64,000 nt of DNA from Antedon mediterranea. Lineage: Eukaryota; Animalia; Echinodermata. Positions 6,201-64,000 of the stretch are shown one piece after another. Location of the stretch: contig NC_092680.1 in assembly GCF_964355755.1 (NCBI RefSeq), positions 3,534,001-3,598,000 on the forward strand, read 5' to 3'. The notes under the pieces are model-generated. The model saw nothing but the letters and a program-made list of their open reading frames with translations. It ran no database searches and was not told the origin of the DNA. Each line of letters opens with the position of its first letter. The stretch's first letter is position 1. Both the position numbers and the translations under genes were made by a program.

Positions 6201-7455
6201 TCTGCGCATGTTTATTATGCTATAGTAACCATTTATGTAGAATATGGTTACTATAGCACAATTGACATGCGCAGAACCCATTAGTCGACTCTGCGCATGT
6301 TTATTATGCTATAGTAACCATTTATGTCAAAAAATAAAAGGGTCGAAAATCGGCCATTTTTCGAAAATTTTCCTGTACTATAGTACAGAGATTTTTTCAA
6401 AAACATGGCCAATTTTCGACCTTTTTATTTTTCGATAAAACTTGTTACTATAGCACAATTAACATGCGCACAACCCTTTAGTCGACTCTGCGCATGTTTA
6501 TTATGCTATAGTAACCGTTTATGTAGAATATGGTTATGATAGCACAATTGACATGCGCAGAACCCATTATTCGACTCTGCGCATGTTTATAATGCTATAG
6601 TAACCATTTATGTCAAAAAATAAAACGGTCGTAAATCGGCCATTTTTCGAAAATTTTCCTGGGATTTTTTCAAAAACATGGCCAATTTTCGACCTTTTTA
6701 TTTTTCGATAAAACTTGTTACTATAGCACAATTAACATGCGCACAACCCATTAGTCGACTCTGTGCATGTTTATTATGCTATAGTAACCATTTATGTGGA
6801 ATATGGTTACTATAGCACAATTGACATGCGCAGAACCCATTAGTCGACTCTGCGCATGTTTATTATGCTATAGTAACCGTTTATGTAGAATATGGTTATG
6901 ATAGCACAATTGACATGCGCAGAACCCATTATTCGACTCTGCGCATGTTTATTATGCTATAGTAACCATTTATGTCAAAAAATAAAAGGGTCGAAAATCG
7001 GCTGTTTTTCGAAAATTTCCCTGTACTATAGTACAGGGATTTTTTCAAAAAAATGGCCAATTTTCGACCTTTTAATTTTTCGATAAAAATGGTTACTATA
7101 GCACAATTAACATGCGCAGAACCCATTAGTCGACTCTGCGCATGTTTATTATGCCATAGTAACCATTTATGTAGAATATGGTTACTATAGCACAATTGAC
7201 ATGTGCAATTTTCCTGTACTATAGTACAGGGATTTTTTTCCAAAAAATGGCCAATTTTCGACCTTTTTATTTTTCGATAAAACTGGTTAATATGGCTCTA
7301 TAAGATGCTACAAAGCAATATATGCGCATATATACCCATTATTATTGCATAATATAATAATTGAATTTAAAAAAATCGATATTTTAGGCATTTTTCGAAA
7401 AATCCCTGTACAAGGATTTTTTCAAAAAATCACAAAATGTCGACCCCTTATATTT
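3230..7455. repeat. Composite tandem satellite: 89-bp palindromic module A and ~108-bp palindromic module B, in AAB (286 bp) and AB (197 bp) units, bracketed by a ~120-bp direct repeat
   Basis: A = ATGGTTACTATAGCACAATTRACATGCGCAGA-loop-TCTGCGCATGTTTATTATGCTATAGTAACCAT. B is centred on CCTGTACTATAGTACAGG. A starts at 3562, 3651, 3848 and so on. Confidence 0.95.
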
Positions 7456-23900: not shown

Positions 23901-26900
23901 AGGCTTATTGAAGTAGTCATTTTAAAACTTAATAATTTTCAATAAAAACAAACTAAAATTTCAAAAGATCACTAAATATTTGTTTTTAATAATCTATTTA
24001 TTCTTCAACTACAGTTTAAGTTTAAAAAAATCAAGCTAAGATACATAATTTGATAGAAATACAGATCTTCACTGTTTATCAACATAGTAGCGCTGAACGC
24101 GTTTTTTGGTTGGCTAGCAACCATGTAGCGCTCTCTATTGTTGTGACGTCACACCGTGATACTCTATATAGTATTCACTTTATTAAATATTAAAATAATC
24201 CGTTTCTGTGCAAAATATCAATTTATATAATAACAACAAGTCAGTTTGGTGCAAAAGAAACACCCAGACCGTGTTTGATGTTACTATGGGTAGCTTCGAT
24301 GGAGCAGAAACATGCGAATTAATTGGTTTGTTCATACTAGCCAAACTTGAGACGAAATATATGGTAACAGCATAGGACTCTACAGAGATGATGGAGTAAT
24401 GCTGCGTTTCGCAATACACCGCGCCAGATTGAAGAAATTAAAAAGGATCTTTGTAACACACTTTTTCTGTGTCTATACAAAATTAAACTGTACGAACGAT
24501 TCTCTAAATTTTGTCTAGCTTACAGCATGGATGCAAACAATATTGTCTAATCTGTAGGTCTATATGTACAAGGATTATATTAATTTATTTTGTTACAAAG
24601 AATCTGATGGTTCATGGTCACGGAAGATTGAAAGGCTGTCAGCACTAGAATAGTAGACTCATACAATGTAAGACATACCAACATACGGATATGTATACAA
24701 TAGTTTATTTGTTAAAGAAAATCGCAAATACATGTGATAAGGTTTGTGGTAGTAAGTACTGCAAATACTTGGTGTAATTACGAAAAAGAGAAAACAAATA
24801 TTTGATCTGTTTATCTTCAAGAAGGATACAAGAACATAAATAAGAAGGTAAAAACAACCTTGAATTTATTAATTAAGAAGTAAATAAAAGAAAAAAAAAA
24901 AGAAAAAATATAACACACATTATATATTATACATTTTTGTTTTTATTTGAGAAATAAAAATTATTAATTGATTGATTGATTGACATTATATATTATAACA
25001 CACATGAGTGAATCCTTTTGTATTACGTGGCATTCGCAATTAAATTCAATTCAATACGATTCAATTAAAAGCCCCACCTGCAATGTTTAATGTTTAGACA
25101 TACTCAAACTTGCAACCTCTTGGATACAGTACATATATACAAAACTAGAACATCAATAACAAATAAATTGCGTCACTCATGTTTTGTAATTCACCTGAAG
25201 TGTGTGACCAGTGCTGGCCATACGAAACACGCTTGTCGTGAATAAATTTGAAGTCATCTTAGTTCATCTCATATCGTTTTATTTTATTTAGCTCTACCTC
25301 GGTGTACAGAGCAATCTATCCAGGTGATCTGAATTATTTATATACTATATATTATATACAAAACTATATATATAAATAATATATGAAAAGGGTTAAACAT
25401 TATTATGGGGGTTCATGTTGTGTATTATCAATTACAAATATTAAAAAATATGAATCGAACTCGAAAGACACAAAACGCATGCCATCATGTGCGAATCAAT
25501 ACTTAATTTTTGGGGAACACTGTTTATACTTCTAATTTTCTCTTTATGAATTCCAGTACTGTACATGGTTATTGATAATAAATTTAAAGATTGAAAAATT
25601 TCAATACATCTCATTCTGAATGAATATATAACCCATAGGACACTGTACAGTACATAACTCCAGATATAACATTTATGGACTTCCCGGTCTCTTAAATTTA
25701 TTTATGTAGCATACCAAAACAACATTTTGATGAACCAAATACGTAAATCATTTATCATTTGCAAAACTAAACACTGTAGGTATCAAGGAAATAGTTATAG
25801 ATTGAATTTATGGTAAAACACATTCTAATAAAAATGTCAATTACCCATCCAGTATTTGAAACTATTTAAAAATAGTTTCAATTTGAATATTTTAGCAACA
25901 AATATGTCGGGTTATATTCTGTCTTAAGTATTAATACAGAATTTAATGGCGACACTGACGACACTTGATATAATTACAAAATTCTTTCATCAAATGGCAG
26001 GAAAAAATAATAGAGGTATCAAATAGTTATTTCTAGGTAAATGTGGAAACAACTATTTGAATAATTGAAAGACAATTTTAAATTCTACTTATAGAACGAT
26101 ACAATTCATCTTGAATTAACATCTTTAATTGACACCGACAAAATAATAACAATAAACACTTGTGTAGCCCTTAAAAAGGATTATCTTTCACAAAATTCCT
26201 GACATCACCTACTGTACAGCTGAAGGTTTAAAAGCATTAAATATCTTGTCTTTGTGTTTTCATATTTTCATGAAGCTTTTCATTTGGGGAAAAACCTCAT
26301 CACATGAATGATATTGCAAACATTATTAATAAAAATGTGTGTTCTGTGTTCATCCGTTTTTAAATATGGGAGAGCAGAACACCTGTCGTCGTAAGAAGCC
26401 AAAAAAACGAAAATGATCGTCGGTCTGACACCATATGCACTACAGTATGAAGCACGTCATATATGCTGCTTAAAGCTCTGTCCACACTATCAAACTTTAT
26501 GTGATAAAAAAACTGTGATGTTATATCACTACCATATTTAAGCATATCACTACCATATTTGGGTACATCACACCTTTTTTTTTCAAACTAGTTTGATAGT
26601 GTAGACATTTATAAAAAATGTGGGGTTCGTCAAAAAAGTGAGGGGACTATTCTCCTTTAAAAAAAATGGGGGATGTGTCAGTAGGCCTACTATGACAACA
26701 GCTGATATTATAACACACCTAGATTCTAGGCCATGTTGGTTTATCCAGGTAAGCTAGGCACATAGACTACATGTTACTGATCAAAAACAAATCGGAGAAA
26801 ATACAAATATGAAACATAAAAAAAAAACACATAGATTCTGTTTAGGAAGCAACATACATGGTCTTGATTTAACACATGTTTACAGTAAAGTGATCTGCAA

Positions 26901-32900: not shown

Positions 32901-35900
32901 AATAAGCTAACGTTATGTCAATTTTCTATTCAAGTAAACTTAAACATAAAAGGAAGCTAAGGAAATTGTTGAGTGGAAAAGAAATTAAAAGGATAAAGTA
33001 AAGTAAAAGTGGGTAAAAGGTTAAAGGTTACAAAACGGATTGATATATAATAGCGTGTATGTCATAAAGAAAATAAGATCAATGTAATTTGTTAAAGATG
33101 ATAGTGGAAGATGGTACATACATTTTTTCAAAATATACCATTCAATATGTGCAAATATGAAACTCTTAAAATAAACACAAATTATAAAAGTATACAATAA
33201 TATAAAAACTGAAATTATTATAAAATGGAAGATAAAGTTTATACAAAACAAGGCCATATACATGGCTGCGGTCGCGTGCTCAAATTTGAGTTAGTGTTTA
33301 CCGACCAACCGACCGACATACTGTAAGTGAGCTGTAGAGTCACGTTTGCACGCAACTAAAAATTAAAGCTCAACATTAATACATAAAGAATAATTGATAA
33401 TCATCAATCAAAATTAGGCTAACAAAATAGAGCTGTCAATTATTATTTTTTACCAAAACTGAAGGCGAGTCCAAATTATGCATTTTTTCTTATGTGACTA
33501 ACTTCCCTACCCACCCACACACTCCATGTTATCCCTTGATAGGGGTAATTCCTCACCCCTCCCACACCCTCCCACACACACAGTAGCAAGCTCCACTATG
33601 ATTGGCTGGTAATTGATCCCTGGTGAATTTTATGAAAAGGAGTTGCTTGTCTCAATCAACGGATGTGAATGATTGGCAACGGTTTAATAAATGGAACGAA
33701 TCATGTGAAGGGATCGAAATAATAATTGATTAATTCACTTAAATCAGTGCGTGTCGGAATTGGTGCCTCGGGTTAGGCAATCTCCTCACTTATAAAACAT
33801 GGAAACTAGGAGATTTACAATATGGAACGGTGTAGTGAGTATACATAGTCCACACCCTGCTAAAAGCAAATAACCCAGATTCTAAACCATATTTCTTCTT
33901 TTTTTTTCATTTTTGTGTTAAATATTAAATACATAATTTGATTGCACAAGACAAACAGGTAAAATGAATAAAATCTAAAATACAAATAAAATATTTATCA
34001 TTATCATATTAGGCAGTTTTAAAAACATTTTATCTAAAACTTCAAGTGTATACATTTCCAAAAAATGTAATTAATCTATGAATAGCATTTGTAATGTAGA
34101 ATAAACATAATGCATTGGATATCAGTATTCAAAGTCCAATAAAATACTGGATTACTACTAAGCTCTCAGAAATGAAACTAAATTAAAATAATTGATACCA
34201 GATACATAATTACGATTTAATATTAAAGCATTCATTCCACGTAAAATAATGTTATGGCACGTGGTAACATCACAAAAGCTTTGTTCTTTATTTTGCTATT
34301 AATCAATAGCTGAATAAACAAAACTATTATTCAGAACGCATTTTACAAAATGGGATGTGCCCATATATGGACATGATGATGTCATATCACTACCATATTT
34401 GGGGATATTTACTGTTATACAGTATTTGGGCACATCACATTTGTGTTGTCAAACTAGTTTGATAGTGTAGACAGAGCTTTAAACAGGGGGTGGGGAGAAA
34501 CAATTGAATTTGAATGGAAAACATCTTATTAGATGACGCATTATTAATTTGTTTTGAAGAGGGAAATCAATGGCAACTTGTCAGACACATTTAAATATTA
34601 AAATTAATATCATATTCTTTAATTTTTAAACATCAAATTAATTGTATAAATTTATGAATATTGTTCAAATTAAAAAGGCAATAAATTTGTAGGTAAATTT
34701 TTCATTTCATATTTGCATGAGAAAATAAATATTATAATATAATATTATATTAATTTTTAACAAGACAAAATTGATTTTAAATTGAGAATGTATATTTTTA
34801 GCTATGGATAGGTATTCAAAATTATATTTAAAAAATTATACATTTGGAAACATGTCAAACTTTTTTTCAATTTTTTAAGTAGTTTATATTATTTTAAATG
34901 TTTTTAATATTATACTTTAGCTAACTATTAAACCTTTATTGTAAGTGCAAAAAAGAGCCTGCCAAAATTCTGTCAATGACCTTTAAACTAATGTTGTACA
35001 GTATATTAAATTATTGATATAATGTTATCTAAAAGCAATGGGTAAAGACTGTAAACATATATAACTGTGAATTAACTTATCTAATACGAGCCATAAACAG
35101 TTTCTTGGCACAAACAGTAAATCTTTCATAAATCCTCTATTACTATTAGTGTAAATAAATCAGTGATTTTACAAAAAGGTACAAACCGAAACATTGTGAT
35201 AGAAATGAACATGACTTTGTTCGTATGAGAGCTTGAGCCCTTAGTTTTGGCAATCCAAGGGGCCATTCAACACTGGGACAGGTGGGGGGGGGGAGTGTCT
35301 TAGCGACCTTGTTGCCATTTTTAGCCTTTTTTGACATATTTTAAAGCTTGCTTTAAGTTTAGATTTACTGTTATAAATACCATACTTCTAATTGAATTTT
35401 GTGTCAACATTATGAATTTGTGATAAAACAAAGGCAGCCACCGCAGACGACAGCACATTGTCGAACATAAACTTGATTAAAGGAAAATTTCCTAAAGTTT
35501 CACCTTTTTTCCACATTTTGTTGTTGTCTAGACCCTCGAGTCTGAGGCTCCCGAGTTTAACCAGTGAGCGCTCATAGCTGTTACGACACTGCCCTTTGTC
35601 ATGTTAACATAAAGCAATCAATATACCTATTAGAAGATGTGTTATCTTATCTCAGTATACATGTAAGTATACTGATATTATGATAACGTTAATGGCAATA
35701 TGGAGCAGCCCTCACTAATTCATTGGAAATCTTGTATTGCATTGAAAAGTAAACATCCTGGAACTGTAAAACAGATGCCTGTTATCCCACCGCGCCAACA
35801 TGGTTGAGGTAAGGTATTGTAAAAAAAGTAAATTACAATTTTGGAATATCCCCGCTAGTGATAAACACCTGTGTTCCTCACCACTACTGTATCAAATACA

Positions 35901-41900: not shown

Positions 41901-44900
41901 TAATTTTATGATTAAGTGTATTTTATTTTTCAGAATAAGTTCAACTATGAGTTTCACCTCCATTATGTTGATATATTACAGTACCTGTAAAGGTGGTACT
42001 GTACAACAAAAACATTTTTGTTTTCTATTATTCCTCTGCTAAAGGCAAAATGTATGTTTTTGTTTTCTTACTTTATAATACATATATACTGTAATTCAAA
42101 GCAAAACGATGATATTGATTATTAATACAGTGATGTGCTGTAATACTACACAACAGTGTTAATTATGATAATTAATGTAATTTTCACAAACAAGCTGTTC
42201 TTTTAATTTAAATAATACTTATTCAGTAGTTGACATAATGAATACAGTCTTGGTATGGTGTCTGTTACGGAGACAACAAATACATAAGACTGACTTCATT
42301 TATATGCATTTTCAAATTGAAACATACGGCAATGTGATCAAACATTTAAATTATAAAATATATAATTTAAATTATAATTTATGGGGTTTTTAATTAATAG
42401 AAAACAAAAATTCACAACTTTATGTTAAAATAGAGTTCGAGTTAAAATAACGATTGTGAGGCATTTGATAATGTAAATAGGCAAACTGCCTTAAAATGTG
42501 TCATGTTTCGAGAAACTATTCTCATCATCAGAACAGAAAACAACGCCTAGAGTACTTATATACCAATATTAATACTAATACTAAAATGTACAGCACTGAC
42601 AAACGATTAGTTTTTCCCATAAGCTAAGCACTTCTTTTTGATTAGTTTATTCTGGCATATGACTGCATCATAGTCGCTATATACTTGAACTCTACAGAAG
42701 AAACTGCAAGTTACGAACAATACAACGTAGAAAGATGCCAAGGGAATAAAGATAACATTAGTTTATTTGCGGCCTAGCCTGGCAGAGAGGTTTCCAATCT
42801 TCTACATTTAATAGTTGTTAAAAATGAAAGCTAGATAAAAAGAAGTTTCCTAAATGGATCATAACTTTCTCTTTAAAACTTTCCAATAAATTATATGGAA
42901 AATCTATAAAAAAAACGGATTTCTAAAAAAAAAATATTCTTCTCTGTCGGGAAAGTTCCTTAAAAAGTAGTAATCAGTACTAATACCCAATTCACATGTA
43001 AACATAAATGTAATTATATACAAACAATCTCCTAAGATAATCTTACCGAGTTTAAATGCTATATTTATCAACTATGTAGTCCGTCACGGTGTAAAGTAAA
43101 TGCTGTGTAAAAACTCATTAGTAAGATACACGTATTGGTATACTGCAGTTTACATTGATGTTACATCGATGTAATGGGGCTTGTTGATTGCAGACTTGCG
43201 TTTCAAGCAAAGGCTTGTTTAGGGACCCTACAGTAAGTGGCCCTCCAATGCTTGGGGTGTTTTTAGCCTTTTAGATATATTTTAATGCCTGTTTGTTCCT
43301 TTGGGCCCCCATAAGTGCCAGAGTCCCCAGGGTTTAGACAGTCAGCGCTCATAGCCTTTAGGCCACTGATTCTAAGATTTTACATTGAAAACACTTTCAC
43401 ACATTTGTATCAAAGGTAACAATTTATCATTTTTGTACTGTCAATTGGGTAAAAGTGATTTGATACATTAAGTATAATTGTGAATGTACAAAAGTATATA
43501 CTCTGTCTACACTATAATCAAACTAGTTGGACAAAACAAAGTGTGATGTATACCAAAATATGGTAGTCATGTGCCCAAATATTGTAGTGATATGCCCAAA
43601 TATAGTAGTGATATGCCCAAATAAGGTAGTGATATGATATCATCGTAAATATGGTAGTGATAATGCCCAAATAAGGTAGTGATATGTTAATATTTGGGCA
43701 CATTACATTTTTTTGTAACATAAAGTTTGACAGTGTAGACAGAGCTTAAAAAATCGCTGATAATTTCCAAAACGTCTTTCAATCAGTAAATCACCTGCCA
43801 GTCACCCCAAACCACCTCTTTATATCAGGGAATTGTACTCCGTTTATATCCATATAACCAAGATCTAGCCACCCACTCTTAATATAGCAACGCCTTACTG
43901 TAACCATTCAGCAACTACTGTACTGTACTACATTATTAATATCAGTAATTGGAATGTGCCATTTAAAAAAACTGCACCTGAACGTTTTTGTTATTCATTC
44001 TGCTTCGCGGACATCATAAATAATTTGTCATGTATAACAGAGATTAGCTTCCTGTACGGCAGATGAAACCATTGATTTTATCATTCCATTTCTCTTTGAA
44101 AAGAAAAGCTATTAACTCGATATTAAATATTTAATTATTGAAAACAAAAATAGAAAAAATAACGTTATATCTTTGCACATGTTATCCAGGGAAATTTAAA
44201 ATACAGTAAATATCAAAGCTTCTGAAATAATACAGAACAGTTTAAAATGAATATAATGAATGGCTATACAGTAGTACTGTAAGATACAGTGGAGTGGAGC
44301 TGTGGCTTGGTGGTTATGATGCTTGGCTACCAATCTAAGGGTCCTGGGTTCAAGTCCTGTCATATGTCAGGGTTTTTTTTCTCATGACAATTTACAACTC
44401 CACTCCACTCCACTTTATGTAGAGCATCTTGTGTATATGTTTGTCTTGTGAAATTTTAAATAGTTTATCCATCCTGTAATTGGCGGGTTACTCGCTGTTG
44501 GATGAGTATGAAATAAATAAATAAATAAATAACCCCTACATAATAAGGACACAACAAAGTATCCCCTTAACAGGGATTGATGGTATGTAAAATGTATTTA
44601 ATTTTTCCTTCGTTTCTCAGAAAATATTGCCTACTGAAATAGGGGTTTCACCTGAATAGGGATCCTCTGAATAAGGGTATCCTCCGAATTATTATTATTA
44701 TAGGGATATCCCCTGAATACTGTAGGGGTATACCCTGAATAGGGATATCCCCTGAATACTGTAGGGGTATACCCTGAATAGGGATATCCCCTGAATACTA
44801 AAGGGACATCCCCTGAATACTGTAGGGACATCCCCTGAATAGGGATATCCTCTGAATAGAGGTATCCCATGAATTGGGGCATCCTAAAGAGGGTACTGTA

Positions 44901-50789: not shown

Positions 50790-52066
50790 TTATGAAAATA
50801 TTTTAAGAAGAACGAACGAAATTATAGTTAAAAAGATTGTCAAACCGGCGGGTCTGCTTTCAACAGCTGTATTGCCCGGTTGCCTATTTCTTATCCTGAT
50901 AAATTTCTCACCCATTATGCTAAAGTCTTCTAAAACGATGTTTTTGTTGTTGCCACCCTTGGCGACCTGAACCAGGGACACTGTTGCATTAGCAGTGTTA
51001 GTGACATTATCGAAAACAAGAGAGCCATTGTCAATATAAGTTGGCGGGAAGTCTGCATCACTGCACTGTGCAATCTTTACATTGAATGTAATCTGCTGAC
51101 CGTTGTCAAGAATCTCAAACGTGTAACAATCTGCAGGCCTAATCCTTTTCTCCAGCGAACTATGATGAGACATTAGATCTTGAATTAAGATACGTCCGTT
51201 GTCTTCTATGGCACATTTGATTCCTTTGATCGGTACAATGACAGCCCCGTTGGTCATAGGAGCTGCTCGGATGATAATCTCTGCACTGGATGGACCTGGA
51301 GAGCTCTGAACGTTTCGATTGACAAACTGAACTTTACCTTTAACAATTAACGGTTTCCTTCCATCTTTGGACGACTTCCAATTATCAATGGTCTGAATGT
51401 ACCCAGAGTAGCTATCACCCACAATGGCAGCGCCTTCTGTGCTCAAGTATATATAACCGCCTGTCATTGTGCTAGAGTTACCTTCCCATAGATTTTTATT
51501 CCAGACCTTTGGTGTAGAAGTGGTAGGGGGAATCAAAGCCACGTCCGATTTCAATCTTTTGATATGGTCAGGTGCAAGATCGTAGAAGATTCTACGTTTG
51601 TCTCCATGAGAACGAAGCTGTTCCAAACCATTGTAATTCGTCAATGGATCTCTGACCTTCGACCATATGGTCACAGAGTACCGATTTGTCAGTCCAAGAA
51701 TCCATACAAATTTCTGCCAAGATTTAGTTGCCCATATTGCTCGGAAATTGTAGGTGATCGGGTGGGTTGTGACCGTGGAACTGGCGTCAAGCATGTCAAA
51801 GATCATTGTCCATGTATAGCGATCCTGGCGATTGACTCCTGCAACCTCAGAGACGTAGCCCAGTGAGAAGGTCGCGTTCGGAAAGACGGCGTTGACAATA
51901 GCGACAAACTCTGTAGGCTGGATAAGGTTGACTGAATTTTGACCGTTTGGCCCGGCGATTATGTCAGCGTGAAAGAACAGTGGCACTCTCAACTGAGCCT
52001 CTTTTAACAACATAATATCAAGAGCTGGTTGAACGGCCTGTACGTCTTTGAAGTCCAACACAATTC
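50790..52066 (-). CDS. FAM151/menorin exon 4 (large terminal exon)
   Basis: cattag| (G)IVLDFK... inside ORF 50790..52109, ending LTIFLTIISFVLLKIFS*. Confidence 0.92.
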
Positions 52067-55000
52067 CTAATGAAAACAAAAGATAAAATCTGGTCAATAA
52101 AAAAAACAAGAAACAAATGAAAAAAAAGTTTTTCCTACTGTATTTTCCCCTGTTTTCAAAATCCTAATATCAGTTTTAACAAAGTTTTCATGGCGAAAAA
52201 CACTAGTAAATCACCACGATCTGCGGTTTTACGTCTCAATGTTTCGGTTGTTCTTGTTGATAGTAACGACATAATAATTTCCACGGCCACAATGCTTTTT
52301 TGGGGATCCTTTTTTTGGTACTGTGTTTGTTCTTATTGTGCAGTGCTGTTCTTGCTGTGCGCATGGAGGCATACTGTGTGGTGTCGAAACAAATAAAAGC
52401 CAATACCGAACATTATGGAAGGTGTCCATTTGCACAGGGAATAATCTTGGATTACCTTTGTTAGTGTATCTTGTCACCATATCGATCCATTGTTCCAACG
52501 TGATGTCGCTCACAGACATTGAGCTAGGAGCCATTATTGGTACTTGGTTCGCCGTTCCTCTATCACGTAGGCTTACATCTGCCTCAAGCATCATAGCATT
52601 ACCTGTAATGAAAAGAAACACCAACTGATAAGAATGGAAAGTTTGCAAAATAAAGTTCTTTAGTGTAGACTGCTGTAAATATGTTTTGTGCAGTTTGCCA
52701 AAGATGTTCAACTGGTCAACACTAGCAAACTTCTTGAAAGTTTTTTTTGAATTTGCAAACAAAACTTTGGTAAAGTTTGATATTGTAAAGATTTGTGGAA
52801 GTTTCTTTTCTGCAGTTTACTAAAGTTTGGTACGGTCAACACTAGCAAACATTGAAAAAGAAAAATCTTGAAAACTCGGAATTTTTTAAATTTGCAAACA
52901 AAACGTTGGTAAAGTTTGATATTGTAAAGATTTGTGGAAGTTTCGTTTCTGCAGTTTACTAAAGTTTGTTAACGGCGCTGGTCTACACTGGTAAACTATA
53001 CACATTTTTATTCTTTATTCCAAATTTATCAAGAAGTTTCCAAAGTTTGCTAGTATCGTTGTTGACAACCTTTATACTATAACTTAAAGCTCTGTCTACA
53101 CTATCAAACTAGATGTACCCAAATATGGAAGTGATTCCCAAATACTGTAGTGATATGGCATCATCATGTCCATTATGGGCACATCACATTTTCTTTGTCA
53201 GTGTAGACAGAGTTTGAGTTTCCAGACTCTAAGTTTGCCAACAATGATTCGGTAAAACTTTGCTGACAAGTTTTACTGTTCTTAAAAGTATGTTATTTGT
53301 TATTTTTTACCTAAAAGATGAAAGTGTTCAATAATTGTATACAAAGCCAGATGGACTATACATACCTTCCAGTGCCCGTGTCAGTTTGGTGTTACTGTTT
53401 AAATCATGTGCCCACACTATGTTCAACCCATCTCTCTGTGCTTGCGGAAAGAAATACAATATATTGTCTTCCGAGTGGGACAAAGCATCTGGAATTAAAA
53501 TCACAGTTATTTTTAAAAATTTTGAATGAACAGTGAATAGAAACGCTTCTTTAAAACATTTTTTTGTATATTAAAGGGAATTGTTCCCCAAAACATGAAG
53601 AATAAAGATCAGGATAAAACTAAATATTGAATAGGTAATTTGTAGTTTTAATAAAGTTATTCACTGTAGAAAAAAAACCCAACAAAATATGATTTCCCTT
53701 AGAAAGAAAGCCAAAATAAACTGTTAAATTTAACAACAAGAACTTGTTGTCAGACAATGTGCTTTCGGATGACTTTGACTTATTTCTATTAATGGTAATT
53801 TGAGGTTAGTAGTTCCTTTCTCTTTCAGTTTTTGGTCAACGGTCAAAGTGAATAACTGTTATATTTACATTAAAATGGAATATTCTAGAAAAAATGATTC
53901 AAAATGATTTTTCAGATTACGAACTAATTAATTACTTATTACAAAACGTTTAGAATTCTAGTTGATGAATTCTCTAGAACGGACAGGAACTTGAATTAAT
54001 AAATATGACTTTTTGAGGTTATCCTTTCGTTACGAAATCGGCCATTTCCAAGTCATTAACACAATCTTTTATGGTTAAAACATCGATAATGGAAATGAAA
54101 ACTTCATTAACACGATAAATTTACATGATTCATTATGTATTAATCTATAAATAATGAGGTTAAATAATATAATGGAATAATGTTTATAAAATTAAAGTAA
54201 ACATCGTCTCAAGTTCCGTAGAACAATAGGCAAAAACCAGATGAAATAAATGGAACAATATTAGGCAGAATTCAAATTTCTTAAGCTCTGTCTACACTAT
54301 CAAACTGACGTGATGTGCCTATATATGGACATGATGATGTCATATCACTACCATATTTAAGCATATCATCACCATATTTGGGCACATCACACTTTTTTTT
54401 GTCAAACTAGTTTGATAGTGTAGACAGACCTTGTGTAGGCCCTAAAAGTCTACCGGTGCTATAAAAAAACACATCGTGAACTGGCGTAAAAATAATCAGA
54501 CTTAAAAATAAAATAAACAAGTTTAAGGTAGGTTTTTCGTCATGTCTGAAACATAACTATATTAAAAAATATATGTACACAAATATTTATGTGGTATCAC
54601 ATGGAATCCAAAATATTGTAGATGGGAGCAGATTGCTTTACATAAAACTCTTTTTAAGTTACTTAATCTTAATAATCTAAAAATCAAAACTTTATGTTCT
54701 TAAGTACCGTATCCGAACAAAATATCAAGTGACCATGCCTTTGAACGGATGTAGCCTAATTTTTATCATAATTATGATAATCATTTTGTATTTCCTGCAA
54801 ACCAAAATAAAGAAACGTAGGCCTATAATAATTATGTTTCTATTATCAAATTACAGACTGATATTTTTCGGAAATTGTGATTCATTCTATCCAATGCTTT
54901 AACATGGTGGTTAGCTTATCACTTTATTTGGCAAGGAAGTTTAAATCTAATCCCAAGGCTGATAGAATTCAGATCTTTCTGTAATTATTGTTATTCAGAG

Positions 55001-56889
55001 GTAACAGTTGTAGCCTCTGTTGCCCGGTAATTCTGTATACGTGATTTAACCAAAGGTTTTATTCCGAATGAGATTGTTTTCGTTCTGTTTCGTTAGATAA
55101 TTATTAAATGAATATATTATGCTTCAAATTAACCTTTTGTGCCATGTCTTTTATGCTCTGTCTACACTATCAAACTTTATGTGATGTGTCCATATAATGA
55201 GGGTAGTGATATGCCCAAATATGGTAATAATATGACTTCATCATGTCTATATATGGGCACATCACATTTTGTTGTCACATAAAATTTGATAGTGTAGATA
55301 GAGCTTGAATTTGTAAACAATGATTTGGTAAAAGTTTGCTAGTGTAGGTCAAGATTTATTGAGATTTAGAACCATCTGAGGCTTCTATTATTAATGAATA
55401 ACTCAGATAAAAAGAATTTTTCAGTAGATCAGAATTACAGCCAAAAGCAAGGATGTGTATTATAAAACTTGTAAAAATAAACTAATCATTAATATTATTA
55501 TTTTTTATTTAGAAAACTTTCAACATGTTTTGTTTAGGCCTAGTTTTGTAGTTTAATTAAAATGTATACAGATTTTTAAAAAGTAATATTATTAAACTAA
55601 ATTATACAACTGTTACTTGCATTTCTCTCCATGTTCTTTAATTTCGGTTTAAGAATGATAGGCATATTATATTTATATCAAAGGCAAGACATCGGCATTA
55701 GTAACATGTCACAGTTAAATATATTTCATGACTCAGAGTACGTTTTAGACGGCCGGTGCAAAAACTGTTTGGCTGCAACTTTGGTTTGGTCGACTTAAGC
55801 TCTGTCTACACTATCAAACTAGTTTGACAAAAAAAGTGTGATGTGCCCAAATATGGTAGTGACTGATATGACATCTTCATGTCATTTATGGGCACAACAC
55901 ATATTTTGTCACATAAAGTTTGATAGTGTATACAGAGCTTTAAATTATCGTCTTTAAAAGAAAGGTTTTGAATAGATATTCCGAACTAATTTGCATAAAT
56001 GTGTAAAACAGTGAGGATTTAAATTTTATGCAAAATTCAGAACAAAACTTGAAAATGAGTAAACCTCGTACCGATTTAAAAATCAGACAGAACATTTATT
56101 GGACCTCTGTTATTGACTTGTATAATAATCTGTCTACTCTATCAAACTAGTTTGACAAAAAAAGTGTGATATGCCCAAATATGGTAGTGATATGCCCAAA
56201 CATGGTAGTGATATGACATCATGTCCATATTTGGGCACATCACTTTTTTTTCGATAGTGTAGACAGAGCTTAATATCACCTTATTTACAAAAACAAATGT
56301 TGAAAAATAAATCATCATAGTTATTATTTTTATAAATATTAGTATACTTTTATCATCATTATTATCGTAGGTCTATTATAAAAAACAAGGCCAACAGCCA
56401 TAAGTCGCGTGCTAAAAAGCATAGTGATACCGGACCGACAGACAGACAGACCGACAGACCGACCGACCGACATAGTGAACTATAGAGACTAAAAATCATA
56501 TACAGTGCATTTGTTATTAGTTACAGTTAACCCAACGGTTTTTGTCGTGTTGATTTTCTAACCCATTAGTATTATATATTTTAGTCCAAATAATTATTTA
56601 AAAACAATGCAAGAGTAGGTATCTCTTGGAATAACAAGCATTGAACGTTGTTACAGTTTGGTTAGAAACATATACGGTGTAAACAACCGAAAAAGTTTAT
56701 CAATTCGTTTATTGACAAATGTTAAGCCTACAATTGATACTCTCATGTCGATAACCCCTGCAACCGGCAATCGGTAAATGACTAATTACATTTCTACCAA
56801 AATCTTCAAAAGCAATAAAATATTCACTTACCGATGTTAATTATGAATGCAGACAGCAAAACACACAGTTTCAGAAACATTTTAGCCAT
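50790..56889 (-). CDS. FAM151B: FAM151/menorin (MNR-1)-like protein. 4 exons: 56832-56889, 53366-53488, 52456-52602, 50790-52066. 1605 nt, ~534 aa. Signal peptide + PLC-like TIM-barrel (DUF2181) + C-terminal beta-rich domain + GPI-type tail
   Basis: Motifs DGLNIVWAHDLNS, MMLEADV, PIMA..SDITLEQW, KGIVLDFK, ADIIAGPNG, FPNATFSLG, RYSVTIW and IFYDL are characteristic of FAM151. All phase-1 GT-AG junctions are consistent. The A vs B paralog assignment is not resolved. Confidence 0.9.
52456..52602 (-). CDS. FAM151/menorin exon 3
   Basis: ttacag| (G)NAMMLEADVSLRDRGTANQVPIMAPSSMSVSDITLEQWIDMVTRYTNK |gtaatc. Confidence 0.9.
52712..52970. repeat. Tandem duplication, ~120-140-bp unit x2
   Basis: GGTCAACACTAGCAAAC...GGTAAAGTTTGATATTGTAAAGATTTGTGGAAG...GTTTACTAAAGTTTG occurs twice. 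Confidence 0.85.
53366..53488 (-). CDS. FAM151/menorin exon 2
   Basis: ttccag| (D)ALSHSEDNILYFFPQAQRDGLNIVWAHDLNSNTKLTRALE |gtatgt. Confidence 0.88.
53576..53920. mobile_element. Degenerate K1 MITE (further relics near 30283-30500 and 47040-47200)
   Basis: ttaaagggaattgttccccaaaacatgaa...gtcaaagtgaataact...cattaaaatggaatattc matches the K1 internal sequence. Confidence 0.5.
56381..56496. mobile_element. Short Helentron/DINE-like dispersed element
   Basis: Same ends as 33245-33363, with a GACA/GACC microsatellite core. Confidence 0.55.
56832..56889 (-). CDS. FAM151/menorin exon 1, signal peptide MAKMFLKLCVLLSAFIINI
   Basis: aaaATGG start and ATCG|gtaagt donor; CpG-richer region immediately upstream. 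Confidence 0.75.
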
Positions 56890-58144
56890 TTTTGCGGCAC
56901 GTTCCGGGAAGAATAAGTTTCCAAGACAGCAGATTTAAGTGTGGCGAAAAAGAATCCGCTGCGCCAGAAACAACTCGAAGCATTCCTATTGGTCGATTAC
57001 TTTTTTACAGGGACTGTCGTTTCCGCTATTTGACTACGCCCTTAGCAACAACACACAACGTCACGGGATCACGCTTAATTCTTTGCCGATCGAATAAAAC
57101 AGATTACTAACAATTATATAAATAATAAAATATATAATACTTTATACTTAATTTTTGATATAGAATTCTATAATCCAATATGATACAAACAACATTAGTG
57201 AACCTACTACCAAACAGTGTATCTTGAAGTATGCTCATGTGTCACTTCTTTGGGTTTATCCAATAATTAATCATTTTATTGTGGTGAAAAATGTTTATCT
57301 TTTCTTCTTTCTTTATTATTTTTTCTTTATTTATTTAGGCCTATATTTGTCATACACAATAAACATACATAAATAATAATAATCATAATACAAAGACAAA
57401 AAAAAATCAATTTCTATTTCTTAAGCTCTGTCTCCACTATCAAACTTGTTTGACAAAAAATGTGATATGTCCAAATATGGTAGTGATATTTCTAAATATG
57501 GTAGAGATATGACATCATCGTGGTACATGGGCACATCACATTTTTTGTAACATAGAATTTGATAGTGTAGACAGAGCTTAAAACAGTAACATTAAATTAT
57601 GGAAAAGACTTCTGCAGTACGGATATGCTTTTGATTCAATTACAGCGACGCAGTGAGTCATGTAGGACACTCAAATATGGAACAAAAAGTTAAAAATAAA
57701 ACTCACTTTATTGGTTTATTCGGTTGCGCTAAACGACCGAAACCATTCCAATGTGTAAGAAATATACGGTTGTCTGCCAATTTAGTATTAAATTATAGCT
57801 TAAAGCTCTGTCTACACTATCAAACTATTTCGACCAAAAACAGTGATGTGCCCAAATATGGTAGTGATATGCTTTAAAATGGTAGTGATATGGCATCATG
57901 TACATTATATGGGCACATTACATTGTGTTGCTACATGTTTGTGTGTAGACAGAGTTTAATACACTTATTGTACCATTTACTGTTCAGAATTTTACTAATT
58001 TTTGAGTAATAATATCGCACGCGCGGCAGATATTAGGCAAATGATCCTAAAGCCGCTTACAGACAGCTAGGTCTATAATAGGTGCTGACAGAACTCAAAG
58101 GGCTTGTAATGTTTCTGAATATTGGCCTACACATGAAATAATGA

Positions 58145-59577: not shown

Positions 59578-62011
59578 TTAAGTATTAAACTTTACCAGAC
59601 TTTTGCAATCTCCGACAATAGGACTACAAATACTATCATTTGTGATTCGCTGAGAACCGAGATCACAAACCTCGGTAAATTTGTCAAGAGACTTGCTAAG
59701 ACACTGAGGAAAACGCGAAGCGAAATGCGTTAAGCGTCAAAACGAAACGAGTTCCCAAAATCAAAGGTTATAAGCGTAGCGCGGAGGTATGTTTGCTAAA
59801 ATCACCGCGTTGAAGCTAAAATCGACCGACACCTAACGCGTCACATTCGCAAAAAACACATGTTATTATTAGTTGTGCGGTTTAACGACTGGAAGAAAAA
59901 AAAGGCACAAGAACTCTCCGGTGGTTTCAGAATTTATTACGTATAATTATACTGGACTTATTATAGTATTCACAAATATTAATAATTGAATTAATAAATA
60001 ATTTTATAAAATAAAAACACATTTAGGCCTAATAACATTTCAAAATAATACAAACACAATTAAAATACTACGTTTAAATAAAGTATGTTATCAAATTCTA
60101 AGGACAATAGAACTATAACAAATTAAATCGGGTAAACTTGAAAATATGTAAGCCTAAATGTGGAAATTATACAAAATACATATTGTTTTAGGTGTAGCTT
60201 GGTGAGGTAACGTGGTTGCCTTCGAATCAACCTCAAATGAGACACTTTTTTTGTAATTATTGCGTATATTAAAAAAAATAACCGCCTAAAAAATTAAAAT
60301 AACCAATCGGGTATAGTTAAACTTGAAAAAAAAAATCAAAATAGGCCTACAATCTACATATCAGAAAGATCACAACGATTTTAAGACTATACTAAATATT
60401 TATTAGATAAATATGCCTTCTGGTTTGATAAAATGAAATATCTATAGTCATTTAACATTACAAACCAGATGAACTTTTACAATGATTTATTAGGTAGTTG
60501 AAAAAAACCAACTATTTTGATAAGACTTGATCAGTGATGAACGTGGTAGTTTCAGGGGCCTAGAAATAATAAACTGTGAAAATATATTAATGATCCTAAA
60601 AAACTATCAAAATAGTTTTAAAAAATTAAGTATGGTTCGCCTTAAAATTAATGTGATCTTTTTTCGGTGCATAGAGATATTATTATCAACTACAATAATA
60701 ATGGAAACAACCAAATGTTCAACTTGTAGAATTCGCAATCTATTTACTGTGCTACAAAAATAAAAAAGGTGATATAGTTTTAAAGATTATATATTATAAA
60801 AGTTTCGCGAAATATTTATTTCTTTTTAGAAAAGGCAGGGTATAATTATCATTAAACCTCTGAGTAAGGCATTTTATGTGGAAGTACGTTTTTCTTGTGA
60901 GTTGTTAAGTGAGTTGATTACAAACGATGAAATACTTTACACCTAAAATTGAACAACTACATTATATTATACACATATTTGGTTGGTGTCAAATCATACA
61001 ATAAAACATATTATATAGTATATAGGAATTATTTAGCAATTATTGGATCATAAAAGTTTTTGACAATTATCACATGATTTTGGTATAATAAATATTGCAT
61101 ACATTATCATGATATTCTGTGTTCATATATATTAATTACTATCTGTATGATCAAATCATTCAGAATATCCTGTAAACTTAACATAAATTTGACATCTGTC
61201 GCTCACATTTGTGTCACATGCGGCAATTTTACTACGTTAGGTTATGGCCTATGAATGACACAGGTGGCACCTGTTATACATATGACACTGTATCAACGGA
61301 TTTTATATGATACTGATGAATTATAGATACAGTACTAAGAATCGGCTAGCATGATCTAAATACATACATGATTATCATTAAATATATCAACAAAAAATTG
61401 TAACTGTGATTATCATCGAATAAAGTACTGTAATACAACCACAGATTTGGACATAATTCTGGAAATATTTGTTAATTCTTTGAAAAAAAGTTGTTTTCAT
61501 ATATAAATATAGGCTAAACATATATAACCCCACCCCCCTCATCAGAGCCATACCTTTGTTACGACATTCAGTTCAAGGTTTTTAAGAGTCATGTGATACG
61601 TGGCAGCCATCTTTGTGTCCCACTATTCCTATGTAGAGTATGGAGTTGAATCTCCTTTGTTATAAAAAAAAGTATACCTTTCACAAGACCTTAACTATAA
61701 AATTAAATATCAAAACAATCCCTTTGTTTAAAAGTTTTTTTACAAGAATACCAAAATGTAATAAGTTACATGATTTTAAACAGCAAAATGTAAACACACA
61801 CACATGGAGCATGCATACACACAAAAATAACTTTTTTTTCAATTGTGTAACTCTTAAATATATGGCTCTGTTATAACCCACACCTCCCCAAGCCCGCACA
61901 CACCATCCCAAGCCTACCCAACGCCTCCCCTACCCCATCCACATCCAAACTTTTCATATATTCTCTATCTTTTTAATTTAAAAAATATTCCTATTACTCC
62001 TAAAATTCTTA

Positions 62012-62182
62012 TTATTTATCTCTTTTATACATTTTAACAATTCCTAATCGATGTAATTGTTCCCATAATTTGTTTTCGGCCCCATTATCATGATTTGCAT
62101 AATTTACATGTCTCTGATATTTTGTATCGTAATAATGTTCAGAATATTTTACATAGCTGCCACCAAAGCCATAAATATCAAC
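62012..62182 (-). CDS. ST6GALNAC2: ST6GalNAc I/II-type terminal exon, copy B (intact duplicate; no ATG, so absent from the ORF track)
   Basis: ttttttttag| VDIYGFGGSYVKYSEHYYDTKYQRHVNYANHDNGAENKLWEQLHRLGIVKMYKRDK*; 171 nt, phase 0 like copy A. Confidence 0.82.
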   Translation of the reverse strand, partial: VDIYGFGGSYVKYSEHYYDTKYQRHVNYANHDNGAENKLWEQLHRLGIVKMYKRDK

Positions 62183-62769
62183 CTAAAAAAAAAGAAAAGT
62201 TTTATGAATAACAAGGTCAGAGGTTAGGGGTCATTTGGTTTATAGATTGGACACAATTCATACAATTTCATTTGTCATTAAGGATATAGCTTGCTATCAA
62301 AGGTAAATTTAATGTCTGGTAACTTCATTTATGAAGACAAGAATTGTGCACGCCAATCAAAAAACGCTGTAGTAAAAAAATAAACCTGACTGACTGATCG
62401 CAGCATTTATAAATGGATTTTAGATACAATATATAATGTTCAGAATTGATTAGTAGAAATGTATAAACAAACACATAGTAGATGTTAGACTTCTTAATCT
62501 TTTTTATGTTAGTCCACCAGTCAGCATTTTGATTTTTTTTGTCTGAAAATACGTATGAAACGCCATATTTATCTTTTTACTAATTTCGGTCTAGAATTTA
62601 TACTTAGTAGATGTTAGTCAATGTAATGTAGTAGTCCATTAATAACAACGAAATTGATCTATATCAATTATAGTACAACTTATATCAATGATGGTGTTAT
62701 GGCTGCAATGTAGTCACTAGCAGTATAGCAATGGGTTTATGATCCTCAAATACTCCTTTAAATAGATTT

Positions 62770-62937
62770 CTAATCTCTTTTATACATTTTAACAATTCCT
62801 AATTGATGCAAATTTTCCCATAATTCGTTTTCTGCTTTATTATCGTGGTTTGCAAAAAATCTATGTTTCTGGTAAGTTTTTTCGTAATAATGTTCAGAGA
62901 ACTTATCATAGCTTCCTCCAAAACCATAAATATCAAT
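62770..62937 (-). CDS. ST6GALNAC2: ST6GalNAc I/II-type sialyltransferase (GT29) terminal exon, copy A; upstream exons not found in the window
   Basis: gttccag| IDIYGFGGSYDKFSEHYYEKTYQKHRFFANHDNKAENELWENLHQLGIVKMYKRD*: end of sialylmotif S (YGF), motif III (HYYE) and VS (HDxxxE). The ANHD..E..LW..LH..GI..Y.R pattern is typical of ST6GalNAc1/2. Confidence 0.88.
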   Translation of the reverse strand: MDIYGFGGSYDKFSEHYYEKTYQKHRFFANHDNKAENELWENLHQLGIVKMYKRD

Positions 62938-63082
62938 CTGGAACACAAAAACGTTGAAGATAGTTAAATACGAATGTACGTTCCATAAAAAGATATGGTA
63001 AAAAGAACAGTTGGAAGAAGTGTTCATCAGGATGAGGATATGGAATAAAGGCCATCATTCAAGAATAAATTGGCAGCAAAGT

Positions 63083-63282
63083 CAAGCAAGGCCAGGGTCA
63101 GATAAGGTCAAATAAGATCAGGGTCAATCAAGGTCAAATAAATGCAGTAAGTTCAAATAAGACTAACATCAAATAAGGTCAATGTCAAATAGAGACAGGT
63201 CAAAATAAGATCATGGTCAAATAAAGTTAAATTCAAGTAGATTAAGGTCAGGTATGGTTAGGGTCAAGAAAAGTCAAGGTTG
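63083..63282. repeat. Degenerate (A)GGTCA(AATA) short-period repeat
   Basis: About ten GGTCA/GTTCA cores spaced 10-20 bp. Confidence 0.65.
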
Positions 63283-64000
63283 AGTAACAGTACTTATGGC
63301 AAGTTGTTGGTGAAGACGACAGATTCCGTACCAAAGAGTAACATTGGAGTCAATTAGAATAATATGACGTTTTTATAATCAACAAACATGACTTGTACCT
63401 CCATCGTCTGTATTACCATCAAAAAAAAAAATTTCTAATTTCACTGCTCATTACTGTAGTAGTTGCATCTTCAGTATATACCTATGGAGTATGGGCTCTA
63501 AAATTACTCTATTCATCTAAGGGGACCTGCCCATTGTAATGTTCCAGTTAAAAGAATATGGTATAGTTGCATTTAAAGTAGTAAATAGATTTTATATACA
63601 GGCACCTTTCAATTCATGTCATCTGATTGGTCTAGTTATTGCCATGTCCTCGACCTACAGACTGGCTAAACTGCGCATGTCTGTTTCATCTTAAATAACG
63701 ATGATGATGATGGACTGAGCGGACAGATCATGTTTCTCTCTGAAAACTATCTTATAATGAATAAACTATCTTTAATAATACAACCAGATCTGTACACACG
63801 TGCAACGTGAAGATTGTGTAGCTAGCCCTAGCATAGCCTACGATGGTTAACTTGTGTAGATGTAGTTGACTTAGAGGATTTAGTAAGTTTAGCAGCCAGT
63901 AAAAATATGAAGAAACAAATAAAGTATGCTTTTTGAATATTATTGCATATTTGGAAGCAAAATATTATCAAATGCACGCCTTTTGATGTTTGCTCCTTCG

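What the first reader, a model, noticed from the sequence alone, without database searches (positions are those of the whole stretch)
62012..62937. Sialyltransferase with two intact, diverged catalytic last exons (switchable C-terminal module)
Seen: two phase-0 terminal exons lie 587 bp apart, each with a polypyrimidine/AG acceptor and its own stop. They match at 41 of 55 aa, with about nine synonymous codon changes and no indels, while the flanks show no visible similarity. Both keep YGF, HYY[ED] and HDxxxE. Half of the 14 substitutions fall in the ~10 residues between HYY and VS (EKTYQKHRFF vs DTKYQRHVNY). Known: the VS His is the catalytic base of GT29 enzymes and this region lines the substrate site. 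Inference: there is no room for a second gene between the copies, so one gene may make two enzymes with different substrate preference by alternative last-exon choice. I do not recall this arrangement in vertebrate ST6GALNAC1/2.
Basis: partly seen in the sequence, partly recalled or inferred. Interest (0 to 1): 0.78.

Follow-up and report, generated by a model that had tools for sequence, protein, structure and literature searches.

The report
Feather-star sialyltransferase with two catalytic tails
A feather-star gene for a sugar-adding enzyme carries two intact tandem copies of its last exon, the piece holding the catalytic histidine; one copy is seen spliced in RNA, the other is only database-predicted, so the gene likely makes two enzyme versions that may prefer different substrates.

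Summary
Two 55-codon last exons lie 587 bp apart: 41/55 aa identical, 9 synonymous-only codon changes, no indels. Both match RefSeq isoforms of one Antedon mediterranea (crinoid) ST6GalNAc1/2-like gene exactly. X1 uses distal copy B, X2 uses proximal copy A, and residues 1-408 are shared, so databases already predict this. One contig of an RNA-like run joins the upstream exon to B; I saw no junction into A. dN/dS is 0.32. Seven of 14 differences cluster just before the catalytic His (p about 0.03). B keeps VNYANHD, shared with urchins, brittle stars and a hemichordate; A has RFFANHD, like Anneissia and one starfish paralogue clade. Starfish vary this position between separate genes. Different substrate preference is plausible but untested, and two polyA sites are not shown. 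This is a new member of a known kind (tandem duplicated terminal exons). I found no sialyltransferase precedent in print. The scan noted similar pairs in other genes of other genomes, not this one.

The parts
62770..62937 (-). Copy A, proximal last coding exon (residues 409-463 of RefSeq isoform X2, XP_071964300.1) with TAG; loop type RFFANHD
   Evidence: 100% match to P0001; Pfam PF00777 E=1.1e-7
62938..62960 (-). Acceptor of copy A: polypyrimidine tract and CAG, phase 0
   Evidence: sequence; 15 of 20 pyrimidines, no branch-like heptamer by my pattern
62854..62883 (-). Copy A codons 19-28, between sialylmotif III and VS; holds 7 of the 14 differences
62845..62847 (-). Copy A His439, catalytic base of sialylmotif VS (aligns with His351 of human ST6GalNAc2)
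   Evidence: alignment to 6apj_A (numbering counted from the aligned range 322-374); role of this His in ST6GalNAc1 from passages of PMC13103387
62183..62769 (-). 587-bp spacer: 3' UTR of the A form and last part of the intron of the B form. Holds a fragment of a high-copy repeat (about 62498-62600); no AATAAA, one ATTAAA at 62313
62183..62229 (-). Acceptor of copy B: two branch-like heptamers, T-rich tract, TAG, phase 0
   Evidence: junction contig leaves the genome at 62184
62012..62182 (-). Copy B, distal last coding exon (residues 409-464 of RefSeq isoform X1, XP_071964299.1) with TAA; loop type VNYANHD
   Evidence: 100% match to P0003; Pfam PF00777 E=1.6e-7; spliced to the upstream exon in run X1
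62099..62128 (-). Copy B codons 19-28, the divergent loop
62090..62092 (-). Copy B His439, catalytic base of sialylmotif VS
59933..62011 (-). Probable long 3' UTR behind copy B (about 2 kb), with a candidate AATAAA at 59938-59933; end inferred
   Evidence: run X1 contig 60036-61839 stops at 60036 where contigs of X2, X3 and X5 go on; one study only, so a weak hint; hexamer

Best explanation
One crinoid ST6GalNAc1/2-like gene carries a tandem duplicate of its last coding exon; the shared upstream exon splices to the distal copy B and likely also to the proximal copy A, which would give two full-length Golgi sialyltransferases that share residues 1-408 and probably differ in substrate handling. 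Each copy has its own acceptor and stop, so the first acceptor used fixes the C-terminus and no exclusion mechanism is needed (from the sequence). B is probably the main form and keeps the VNYANHD loop that looks ancestral for this clade (inferred). A carries a derived RFFANHD loop. Both keep motif III His424 and VS His439, so both should be active. The three residues at -5 to -3 from the catalytic His (V-N-Y versus R-F-F) would tune acceptor or donor binding. Shown: duplication, intact frames, splice into B, dN/dS below 1, clustering. Database-predicted: splice into A. Inferred: activity of both forms and a difference in preference.
For: RefSeq XP_071964299.1 and XP_071964300.1 are identical to residue 408 and end in B and A. 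Run X1: one contig leaves the genome at 62184, and its 30 loose letters, reverse-complemented and read by eye, encode LLTALHTCD with Q completed across the junction, matching the RefSeq upstream exon. A and B differ at 4 of the first 28 exon bases, so at the 93% cut-off the junction belongs to B. X1 contigs break at B's acceptor; those of X2, X3 and X5 do not. dS 0.50, dN 0.16, ratio 0.32 (bootstrap 0.12-0.79; Fisher p=0.011); outside codons 19-28 dN 0.09 and dS 0.54. The one SNP per exon in X1 is synonymous in both (2 of 2). All columns invariant in 21 other echinoderm-type sequences are kept by B, and by A except V1I. Both isoform models fold alike (mean pLDDT 82.7 and 82.6); the B model matches human ST6GalNAc2, 6APL, with target-normalised TM 0.93. 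Residue 435 is N in all 6 urchin and both Amphiura sequences, in one of three hemichordate-type proteins (P0145, which groups with the echinoderm genes at 100/98) and in one starfish paralogue, whereas starfish paralogues show F, N, T, D, Q, H or S there: constant in orthologue groups, variable between paralogues. In hST3Gal1, residues at -6 to -4 from the catalytic His are listed as binding-site residues, and V315A at -1 cuts acceptor efficiency 70-fold (PMC6884586, passages).
Against: I saw no junction into A; in X1, A lies inside one unspliced contig with its upstream intron (62774-63703). Contigs drop rare paths and 3 loose ends were not displayed, so this is inconclusive. The evidence for B is one contig in one run whose RNA status is a guess by the tool; its genomic side is probably 30 letters, just under the tool's 31-letter bridging rule. 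dN/dS is pairwise and cannot show that A is still under selection now. The clustering p of about 0.03 is modest and the loop dN/dS rests on about 6 synonymous sites. 6 of 6 other echinoderm isoform pairs checked share their last 60 aa, including Anneissia, so no second species shows the pair. No acceptor-bound ST6GalNAc2 structure is described in the review I read (PMC8433944, passage), so contacts of residues 434-436 are extrapolated by register from ST3Gal1. F and N toggle at 435 several times on the tree (10 changes), which also fits a tolerant site. No activity data.
Confidence: 0.52

Rival explanations
1. Both copies are spliced and active but catalytically equivalent; the duplicate is kept by redundancy or because exon choice changes the 3' UTR and so the stability or level of the mRNA.
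For: Catalytic residues and predicted folds are the same. Most substitutions are states seen in other homologues. The two forms must differ in 3' UTR (sequence). Position 435 changes often on the tree.
Against: Differences cluster next to the catalytic His more than site variability predicts (p=0.029). A has Arg434, seen in 0 of 21 homologues. The copies are further apart (75% aa) than the Antedon and Anneissia orthologues (82% over residues 141-408).
Confidence: 0.28
2. Copy A is a recently silenced or barely used pseudo-exon; RefSeq X2 rests on rare mis-splicing or on homology to the Anneissia protein, and only B matters.
For: No junction into A among the X1 contigs shown (inconclusive). A lacks a branch-like heptamer that B has twice. 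A alone changes V1 and V26.
Against: A is stop-free, indel-free and keeps every catalytic column; neutral drift over half the synonymous distance keeps that state in 0.2% of simulations. Its acceptor is intact. Its single SNP in X1 is synonymous. The A-type loop is the only annotated ending of the Anneissia orthologue.
Confidence: 0.17
3. The two copies are an assembly artefact (two alleles placed in tandem), or the ends of two separate interleaved genes.
For: No single contig in any of the 4 runs laid spans the whole spacer, which holds a repeat. The upstream gene is outside the window and no whole genome was available.
Against: Contigs of X2, X3 and X5 each carry A and B with their own flanks at per-contig depths like the neighbouring unique DNA (X3: 50.9, 43.7, 48; X2: 8.98, 8.76, 8.6), and run X1 of a second study has both too. 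The copies differ at 20% of bases, whereas the laid contigs differ from the window at about 1% or less. RefSeq gives both one upstream sequence.
Confidence: 0.03

Closest known systems
Tandem duplicated exon substitution events, C-terminal type (PMC9741552; passages, section 10 and part 1 of 2 of the supplement read)
   Same: Homologous tandem exons used one at a time. 77 of 236 human events swap a C-terminal region. Ligand-binding residues inside such regions are mostly conserved (80.6%), as His424 and His439 are here. KHK and ACOX1 are enzyme cases at the active site.
   Different: There the swapped termini tend to be exposed tails that avoid ligand sites; here the swapped exon holds two sialylmotifs, the catalytic base and core strands. 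Most human events are vertebrate-wide; this one is seen in one crinoid species. The supplement does not list all 214 human genes, so I could not check it for sialyltransferases in full (0 hits for ST6GAL, ST3GAL, ST8SIA in what is held).
Drosophila pgant9 A/B (PMC6115407; abstract and section list read)
   Same: An O-glycosylation enzyme whose splice choice swaps a loop at the active-site entrance and so changes substrate preference; the closest working model.
   Different: Different family (polypeptide GalNAc-transferase), and its effect was shown by assay and structure. From recall, the pgant9 exon lies in the lectin domain and is internal, not a terminal catalytic exon.
Human ST6GalNAc2 (PDB 6APJ, 6APL) and ST6GalNAc1
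   Same: Same fold (TM 0.93, 36% identity) and the same motif III and VS spacing (His552 and His567 in ST6GalNAc1, passages of PMC13103387).
   Different: Two separate genes in vertebrates. That each has a single last coding exon is recalled, not tested here.
Starfish ST6GalNAc1/2-like paralogues (Patiria, Acanthaster, Asterias RefSeq models)
   Same: The same loop position varies between copies, including FF (P0006, P0007) and NY (P0011) types.
   Different: Whole-gene duplicates within starfish, not alternative exons; none assayed in the papers I found (listings only).
RefSeq models XP_071964299.1 (X1) and XP_071964300.1 (X2)
   Same: Exactly these two isoforms.
   Different: Automatic predictions; I could not see their supporting reads or UTRs and found no paper on them.

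Membership tests
GT29 sialyltransferase, ST6GalNAc1/2 type | Sialylmotifs III (H-Y-Y-D/E) and VS (H-x4-E) | tested here: met
   Both copies:
GT29 sialyltransferase, ST6GalNAc1/2 type | Sialylmotifs L and S with the two invariant cysteines | tested here: met
   In the RefSeq models only, as these exons lie outside the window: C243 and C406 are invariant over 64 aligned sequences
GT29 sialyltransferase, ST6GalNAc1/2 type | GT-A variant 2 fold closest to ST6GalNAc2 | tested here: met
   X1 model: top 10 PDB hits are 6APL/6APJ chains, E<=3.3e-28; ST3Gal1 next at 2.4e-17. The X2 model was not searched; its secondary structure is the same
GT29 sialyltransferase, ST6GalNAc1/2 type | Transfer of sialic acid to O-6 of peptide-linked GalNAc | not testable with these tools
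   The name is by homology only
Tandem duplicated exon substitution (alternative homologous last exons) | Two homologous exons in tandem, same phase, each with an acceptor and open frame | tested here: met
Tandem duplicated exon substitution (alternative homologous last exons) | Both exons spliced to the same upstream exon | tested here: inconclusive
   B: junction contig. A: RefSeq model only; no junction among the contigs shown
Tandem duplicated exon substitution (alternative homologous last exons) | Only one of the two is translated per transcript | tested here: met
   From the sequence: each copy ends in its own stop codon
Tandem duplicated exon substitution (alternative homologous last exons) | Purifying selection on the pair | tested here: met
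   Pairwise dN/dS 0.32, 95% bootstrap 0.12-0.79; not split by branch
Tandem duplicated exon substitution (alternative homologous last exons) | Pair conserved in other species | tested here: inconclusive
   6 of 6 annotated isoform pairs in 5 other echinoderm species share one ending; no crinoid genome could be searched for an unannotated copy; L001 shows one copy in 1241 bp
Tandem duplicated exon substitution (alternative homologous last exons) | Separate polyadenylation site for each last exon | tested here: inconclusive
   Spacer has no AATAAA, one ATTAAA and 11 weaker variants; X1 contigs run unspliced from the spacer into B
Tandem duplicated exon substitution (alternative homologous last exons) | Both protein isoforms detected, with regulated use | not testable with these tools
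   No proteomics or raw RNA reads available

The most novel reading that the evidence does not exclude
A single GT29 gene switches its catalytic loop by splicing between an ancestral VNY form, kept from hemichordates to sea urchins, and a derived FF form that starfish reached by whole-gene duplication. The two enzymes make different sialyl products (different acceptor, or Neu5Ac versus Neu5Gc or modified sialic acid), in a tissue- or stage-specific way, and the pair predates the Antedon-Anneissia split. Residues 434-436 would then be a specificity switch of ST6GalNAc1/2-type enzymes.
Probability: 0.2. Interest if true: 0.7.

Novelty: new member of a known kind. Interest (0 to 1): 0.42.

Why it matters
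If both forms are made, they are a natural matched pair: 408 identical residues and 14 differences plus one terminal Lys, half of them beside the catalytic base. The review I read describes human ST6GalNAc2 only as a CMP complex without acceptor, and ST6GalNAc1 versus 2 specificities are reported as conflicting (PMC13103387, passage). The pair therefore gives a small, direct test of whether this loop sets preference. It could also bear on the unusual sialylated glycans of echinoderms (PMC4393008, passage). The splicing pattern itself is well known and RefSeq already predicts both isoforms, so the surprise is moderate.

Tried and rejected
No whole genome is held for the window, so the upstream exons and any second Antedon paralogue could not be searched directly; none appears among the best 120 of 485 hits listed. 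No junction into A was seen in X1; contigs drop rare paths, so this shows nothing about absence. X1 contig depths (B 91.6, downstream 118.6, spacer 18-23, A with its intron 10.7) hint that B dominates, but contig depth cannot rank parts of a gene. No X1 cover at 61840-62018 (possibly filtered). Dating: the last-exon tree (25 rows, 56 columns; vertebrate, amphioxus, one long-branch and one duplicate row left out) groups A, B and the Anneissia exon at 95/99, which rejects a duplication older than crinoids unless conversion intervened, but their order is unresolved (A+B 45/64; AU p=0.19 for both other pairings). Synonymous sites are not saturated overall (9 seen, 15.5-21 expected). Gene conversion at the identical 31-nt 3' run: p=0.058, post hoc, not accepted. 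Metagenome scan: 2 loci from 82 pattern matches; L001 is a single NY-type exon, L002 a short match I take for chance. Search of 1.84 billion representatives with exon B: 102 hits; among the best ones read, no further crinoid-like copy. The predicted structures give no contact data, so they do not show which residues touch substrate. The original ST6GalNAc2 structure paper was not available. Searches for a printed precedent: 'sialyltransferase + exon duplication + alternative splicing' 0 papers; 'sialyltransferase + crinoid' 6 listings, none on this gene by title; searches likewise. Subscription journals are mostly not covered.

Full report
Observation. The minus strand holds two homologous exons: A at 62937-62770 and B at 62182-62012, 587 bp apart. 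They agree at 41 of 55 residues and 135 of 168 bases, with 9 synonymous-only and 14 non-synonymous codons and no indel; B adds one Lys. Similarity starts at the acceptor AG and ends at the stop. Both match Pfam GT29 positions 220-271 of 272 and the C-terminus of human ST6GalNAc2. tblastn of the full proteins finds no other exon of the gene in the window.

Identity. Copy A matches P0001 exactly, and P0001's cluster holds two RefSeq proteins of Antedon mediterranea, a feather star: isoform X1 (464 aa) and X2 (463 aa). They are identical to residue 408; X1 ends in B and X2 in A. So automatic annotation already treats this as one gene with two last exons. I could not see the evidence under those models; from my own knowledge such alternative models usually need transcript alignments.

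Is it real DNA? Three runs of one sample (X2, X3, X5) have contigs carrying each copy with its own flanks, at per-contig depths like neighbouring unique DNA, and run X1 of another study carries both as well. No contig spans the whole spacer, because a repeat breaks it. A 20% difference between copies is far above the 1% or less seen between runs and window. An assembly artefact is unlikely.

Is it spliced? In X1 the contigs break at B's acceptor, where those of the other three runs do not. One X1 contig leaves the genome at 62184, and its loose letters, read on the minus strand, encode LLTALHTCD with Q completed across the junction, the end of the RefSeq upstream exon. That is a direct splice into B, from one contig in one run. 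A lies inside one unspliced contig with its upstream intron; contigs drop rare paths and 3 loose ends were not displayed, so use of A rests on RefSeq alone. X1 contigs also run unspliced from the spacer into B, and the spacer has no AATAAA (one ATTAAA and 11 weaker variants). The A form may therefore read through B to the same distal polyA site (candidate AATAAA at 59938).

Selection. Nei-Gojobori dS is 0.50 and dN 0.16, ratio 0.32 (bootstrap 0.12-0.79, Fisher p=0.011). Outside codons 19-28 dN is 0.09 against dS 0.54; inside, dN is 0.56 against a poorly determined dS of 0.31. Neutral drift to half the synonymous distance keeps an open frame plus 8 motif residues in 0.2% of 20,000 runs. The single SNP that X1 shows in each exon is synonymous. 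These are pairwise results: they show that neither copy drifted freely for long, not that A is still needed today.

Where the differences sit. Seven of 14 lie in codons 19-28, between motif III (His424) and VS (His439). The scan p is 0.033, and 0.029 after weighting by site variability in 21 other echinoderm-type sequences. The sharpest contrast is residues 434-436: R-F-F in A, V-N-Y in B, I-F-Y in human ST6GalNAc2. In ST6GalNAc1 the equivalent histidines hold the CMP phosphate and act as base (PMC13103387, passages). In hST3Gal1, F310, R311 and K312, at -6 to -4 from the base, are listed among binding-site residues, and changes at -1 cut efficiency sharply (PMC6884586, passages). In ST6Gal1 the region before VS is a mobile catalytic loop (PMC8433944, section 13). 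Transfer to this enzyme is by register only. AlphaFold models of both isoforms are alike and confident over the catalytic domain, and X1 matches 6APL best, but the tools give no contacts.

Evolution. A tree of the part upstream of the last exon (32 rows; one long-branch and one duplicate row left out) shows lineage-specific paralogues. VNY or VNF occurs in the 5 urchin rows (a sixth, identical upstream, was left out), both Amphiura rows, one starfish paralogue and the hemichordate protein that groups with the echinoderm genes at 100/98. F at 435 occurs in Anneissia, one starfish clade, sea cucumbers, amphioxus and vertebrates. Other starfish paralogues have T, D, Q, H or S. N as the ancestral state of this clade is slightly more parsimonious by my count, but the base of the tree is open. 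B thus looks conservative and A derived. A position fixed in orthologue groups and varied among paralogues is what a specificity site looks like, though repeated F/N change also fits a tolerant site. A, B and the Anneissia exon form one crinoid group (95/99), with unresolved order. A shares D419, F435 and F436 with Anneissia against B, and A and B are further apart (75%) than the two species' orthologues (82% over residues 141-408). Either the duplication predates the split and Anneissia hides or lost a B-like copy, or the copies evolved fast. All annotated Anneissia isoforms end in the FF type, and 6 of 6 isoform pairs checked in 5 other echinoderm species share one ending.

Mechanism. The spliceosome picks acceptor A or, skipping it, acceptor B. 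Each exon ends in a stop, so one catalytic tail is made per mRNA. B has the clearer branch-point signals and is the form I saw spliced. Both proteins should be active, and most likely differ somewhat in how they bind acceptor or donor. I put use of both copies at about 0.8 and a real difference in preference, given use, at about 0.65.

Comparison. Tandem duplicated exon substitutions are a described class; 77 of 236 human events are C-terminal, they tend to avoid ligand sites, and where they overlap them the binding residues are mostly kept (PMC9741552). Drosophila pgant9 shows that a spliced loop can switch glycosyltransferase preference (PMC6115407, abstract). I found no report of a duplicated catalytic exon in a sialyltransferase (open-access library only; the full human gene list was not in the supplement held). 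Earlier notes of this scan describe duplicated last exons in other genes of other genomes and nothing on this gene.

Verdict. Real feature, already predicted by RefSeq, of a known kind, with an unusually central position in the enzyme and a clean test. Interest 0.42.

Noticed in passing
window 50790-52816 (-): A menorin / FAM151-like gene, the next coding region downstream on the same strand; one long open frame (50790-52163) holds both Menorin (E=2e-40) and Menorin_C (E=3e-6) matches.
   Followed up: partly
window 3378-7308: A 3.9-kb array of nested periods (89, 197, 286, 483 bp) that also matches itself in reverse, because the unit holds an inverted repeat.
   Followed up: no
window 62018-62048 and 62773-62803: The last 31 coding bases of the two copies are identical, synonymous sites included; possible gene conversion, p=0.058 post hoc.
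   Followed up: partly
proteins P0028, P0033, P0037, P0039, P0040: 5 of 21 non-crinoid echinoderm-type homologues replace the motif III His, described as invariant in ST3Gal enzymes, by Tyr, in urchin, brittle-star and starfish paralogues on separate branches. They may have altered or lost activity.
   Followed up: no
window 9457-10850 (-): Two open frames (101 and 235 aa) that look like exons of a low-complexity protein; no Pfam match at E 0.1.
   Followed up: partly
window 19180-19450, 26470-26610, 34270-34490, 43500-43750, 53070-53220, 54280-54430, 55150-55950, 57410-57960: A dispersed short repeat family with inverted matches, possibly a miniature transposon.
   Followed up: no
L001:320-487: A last exon of an unnamed ST6GalNAc-like gene of the VNY type (69% to copy B), single within its 1241-bp contig.
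   Followed up: yes
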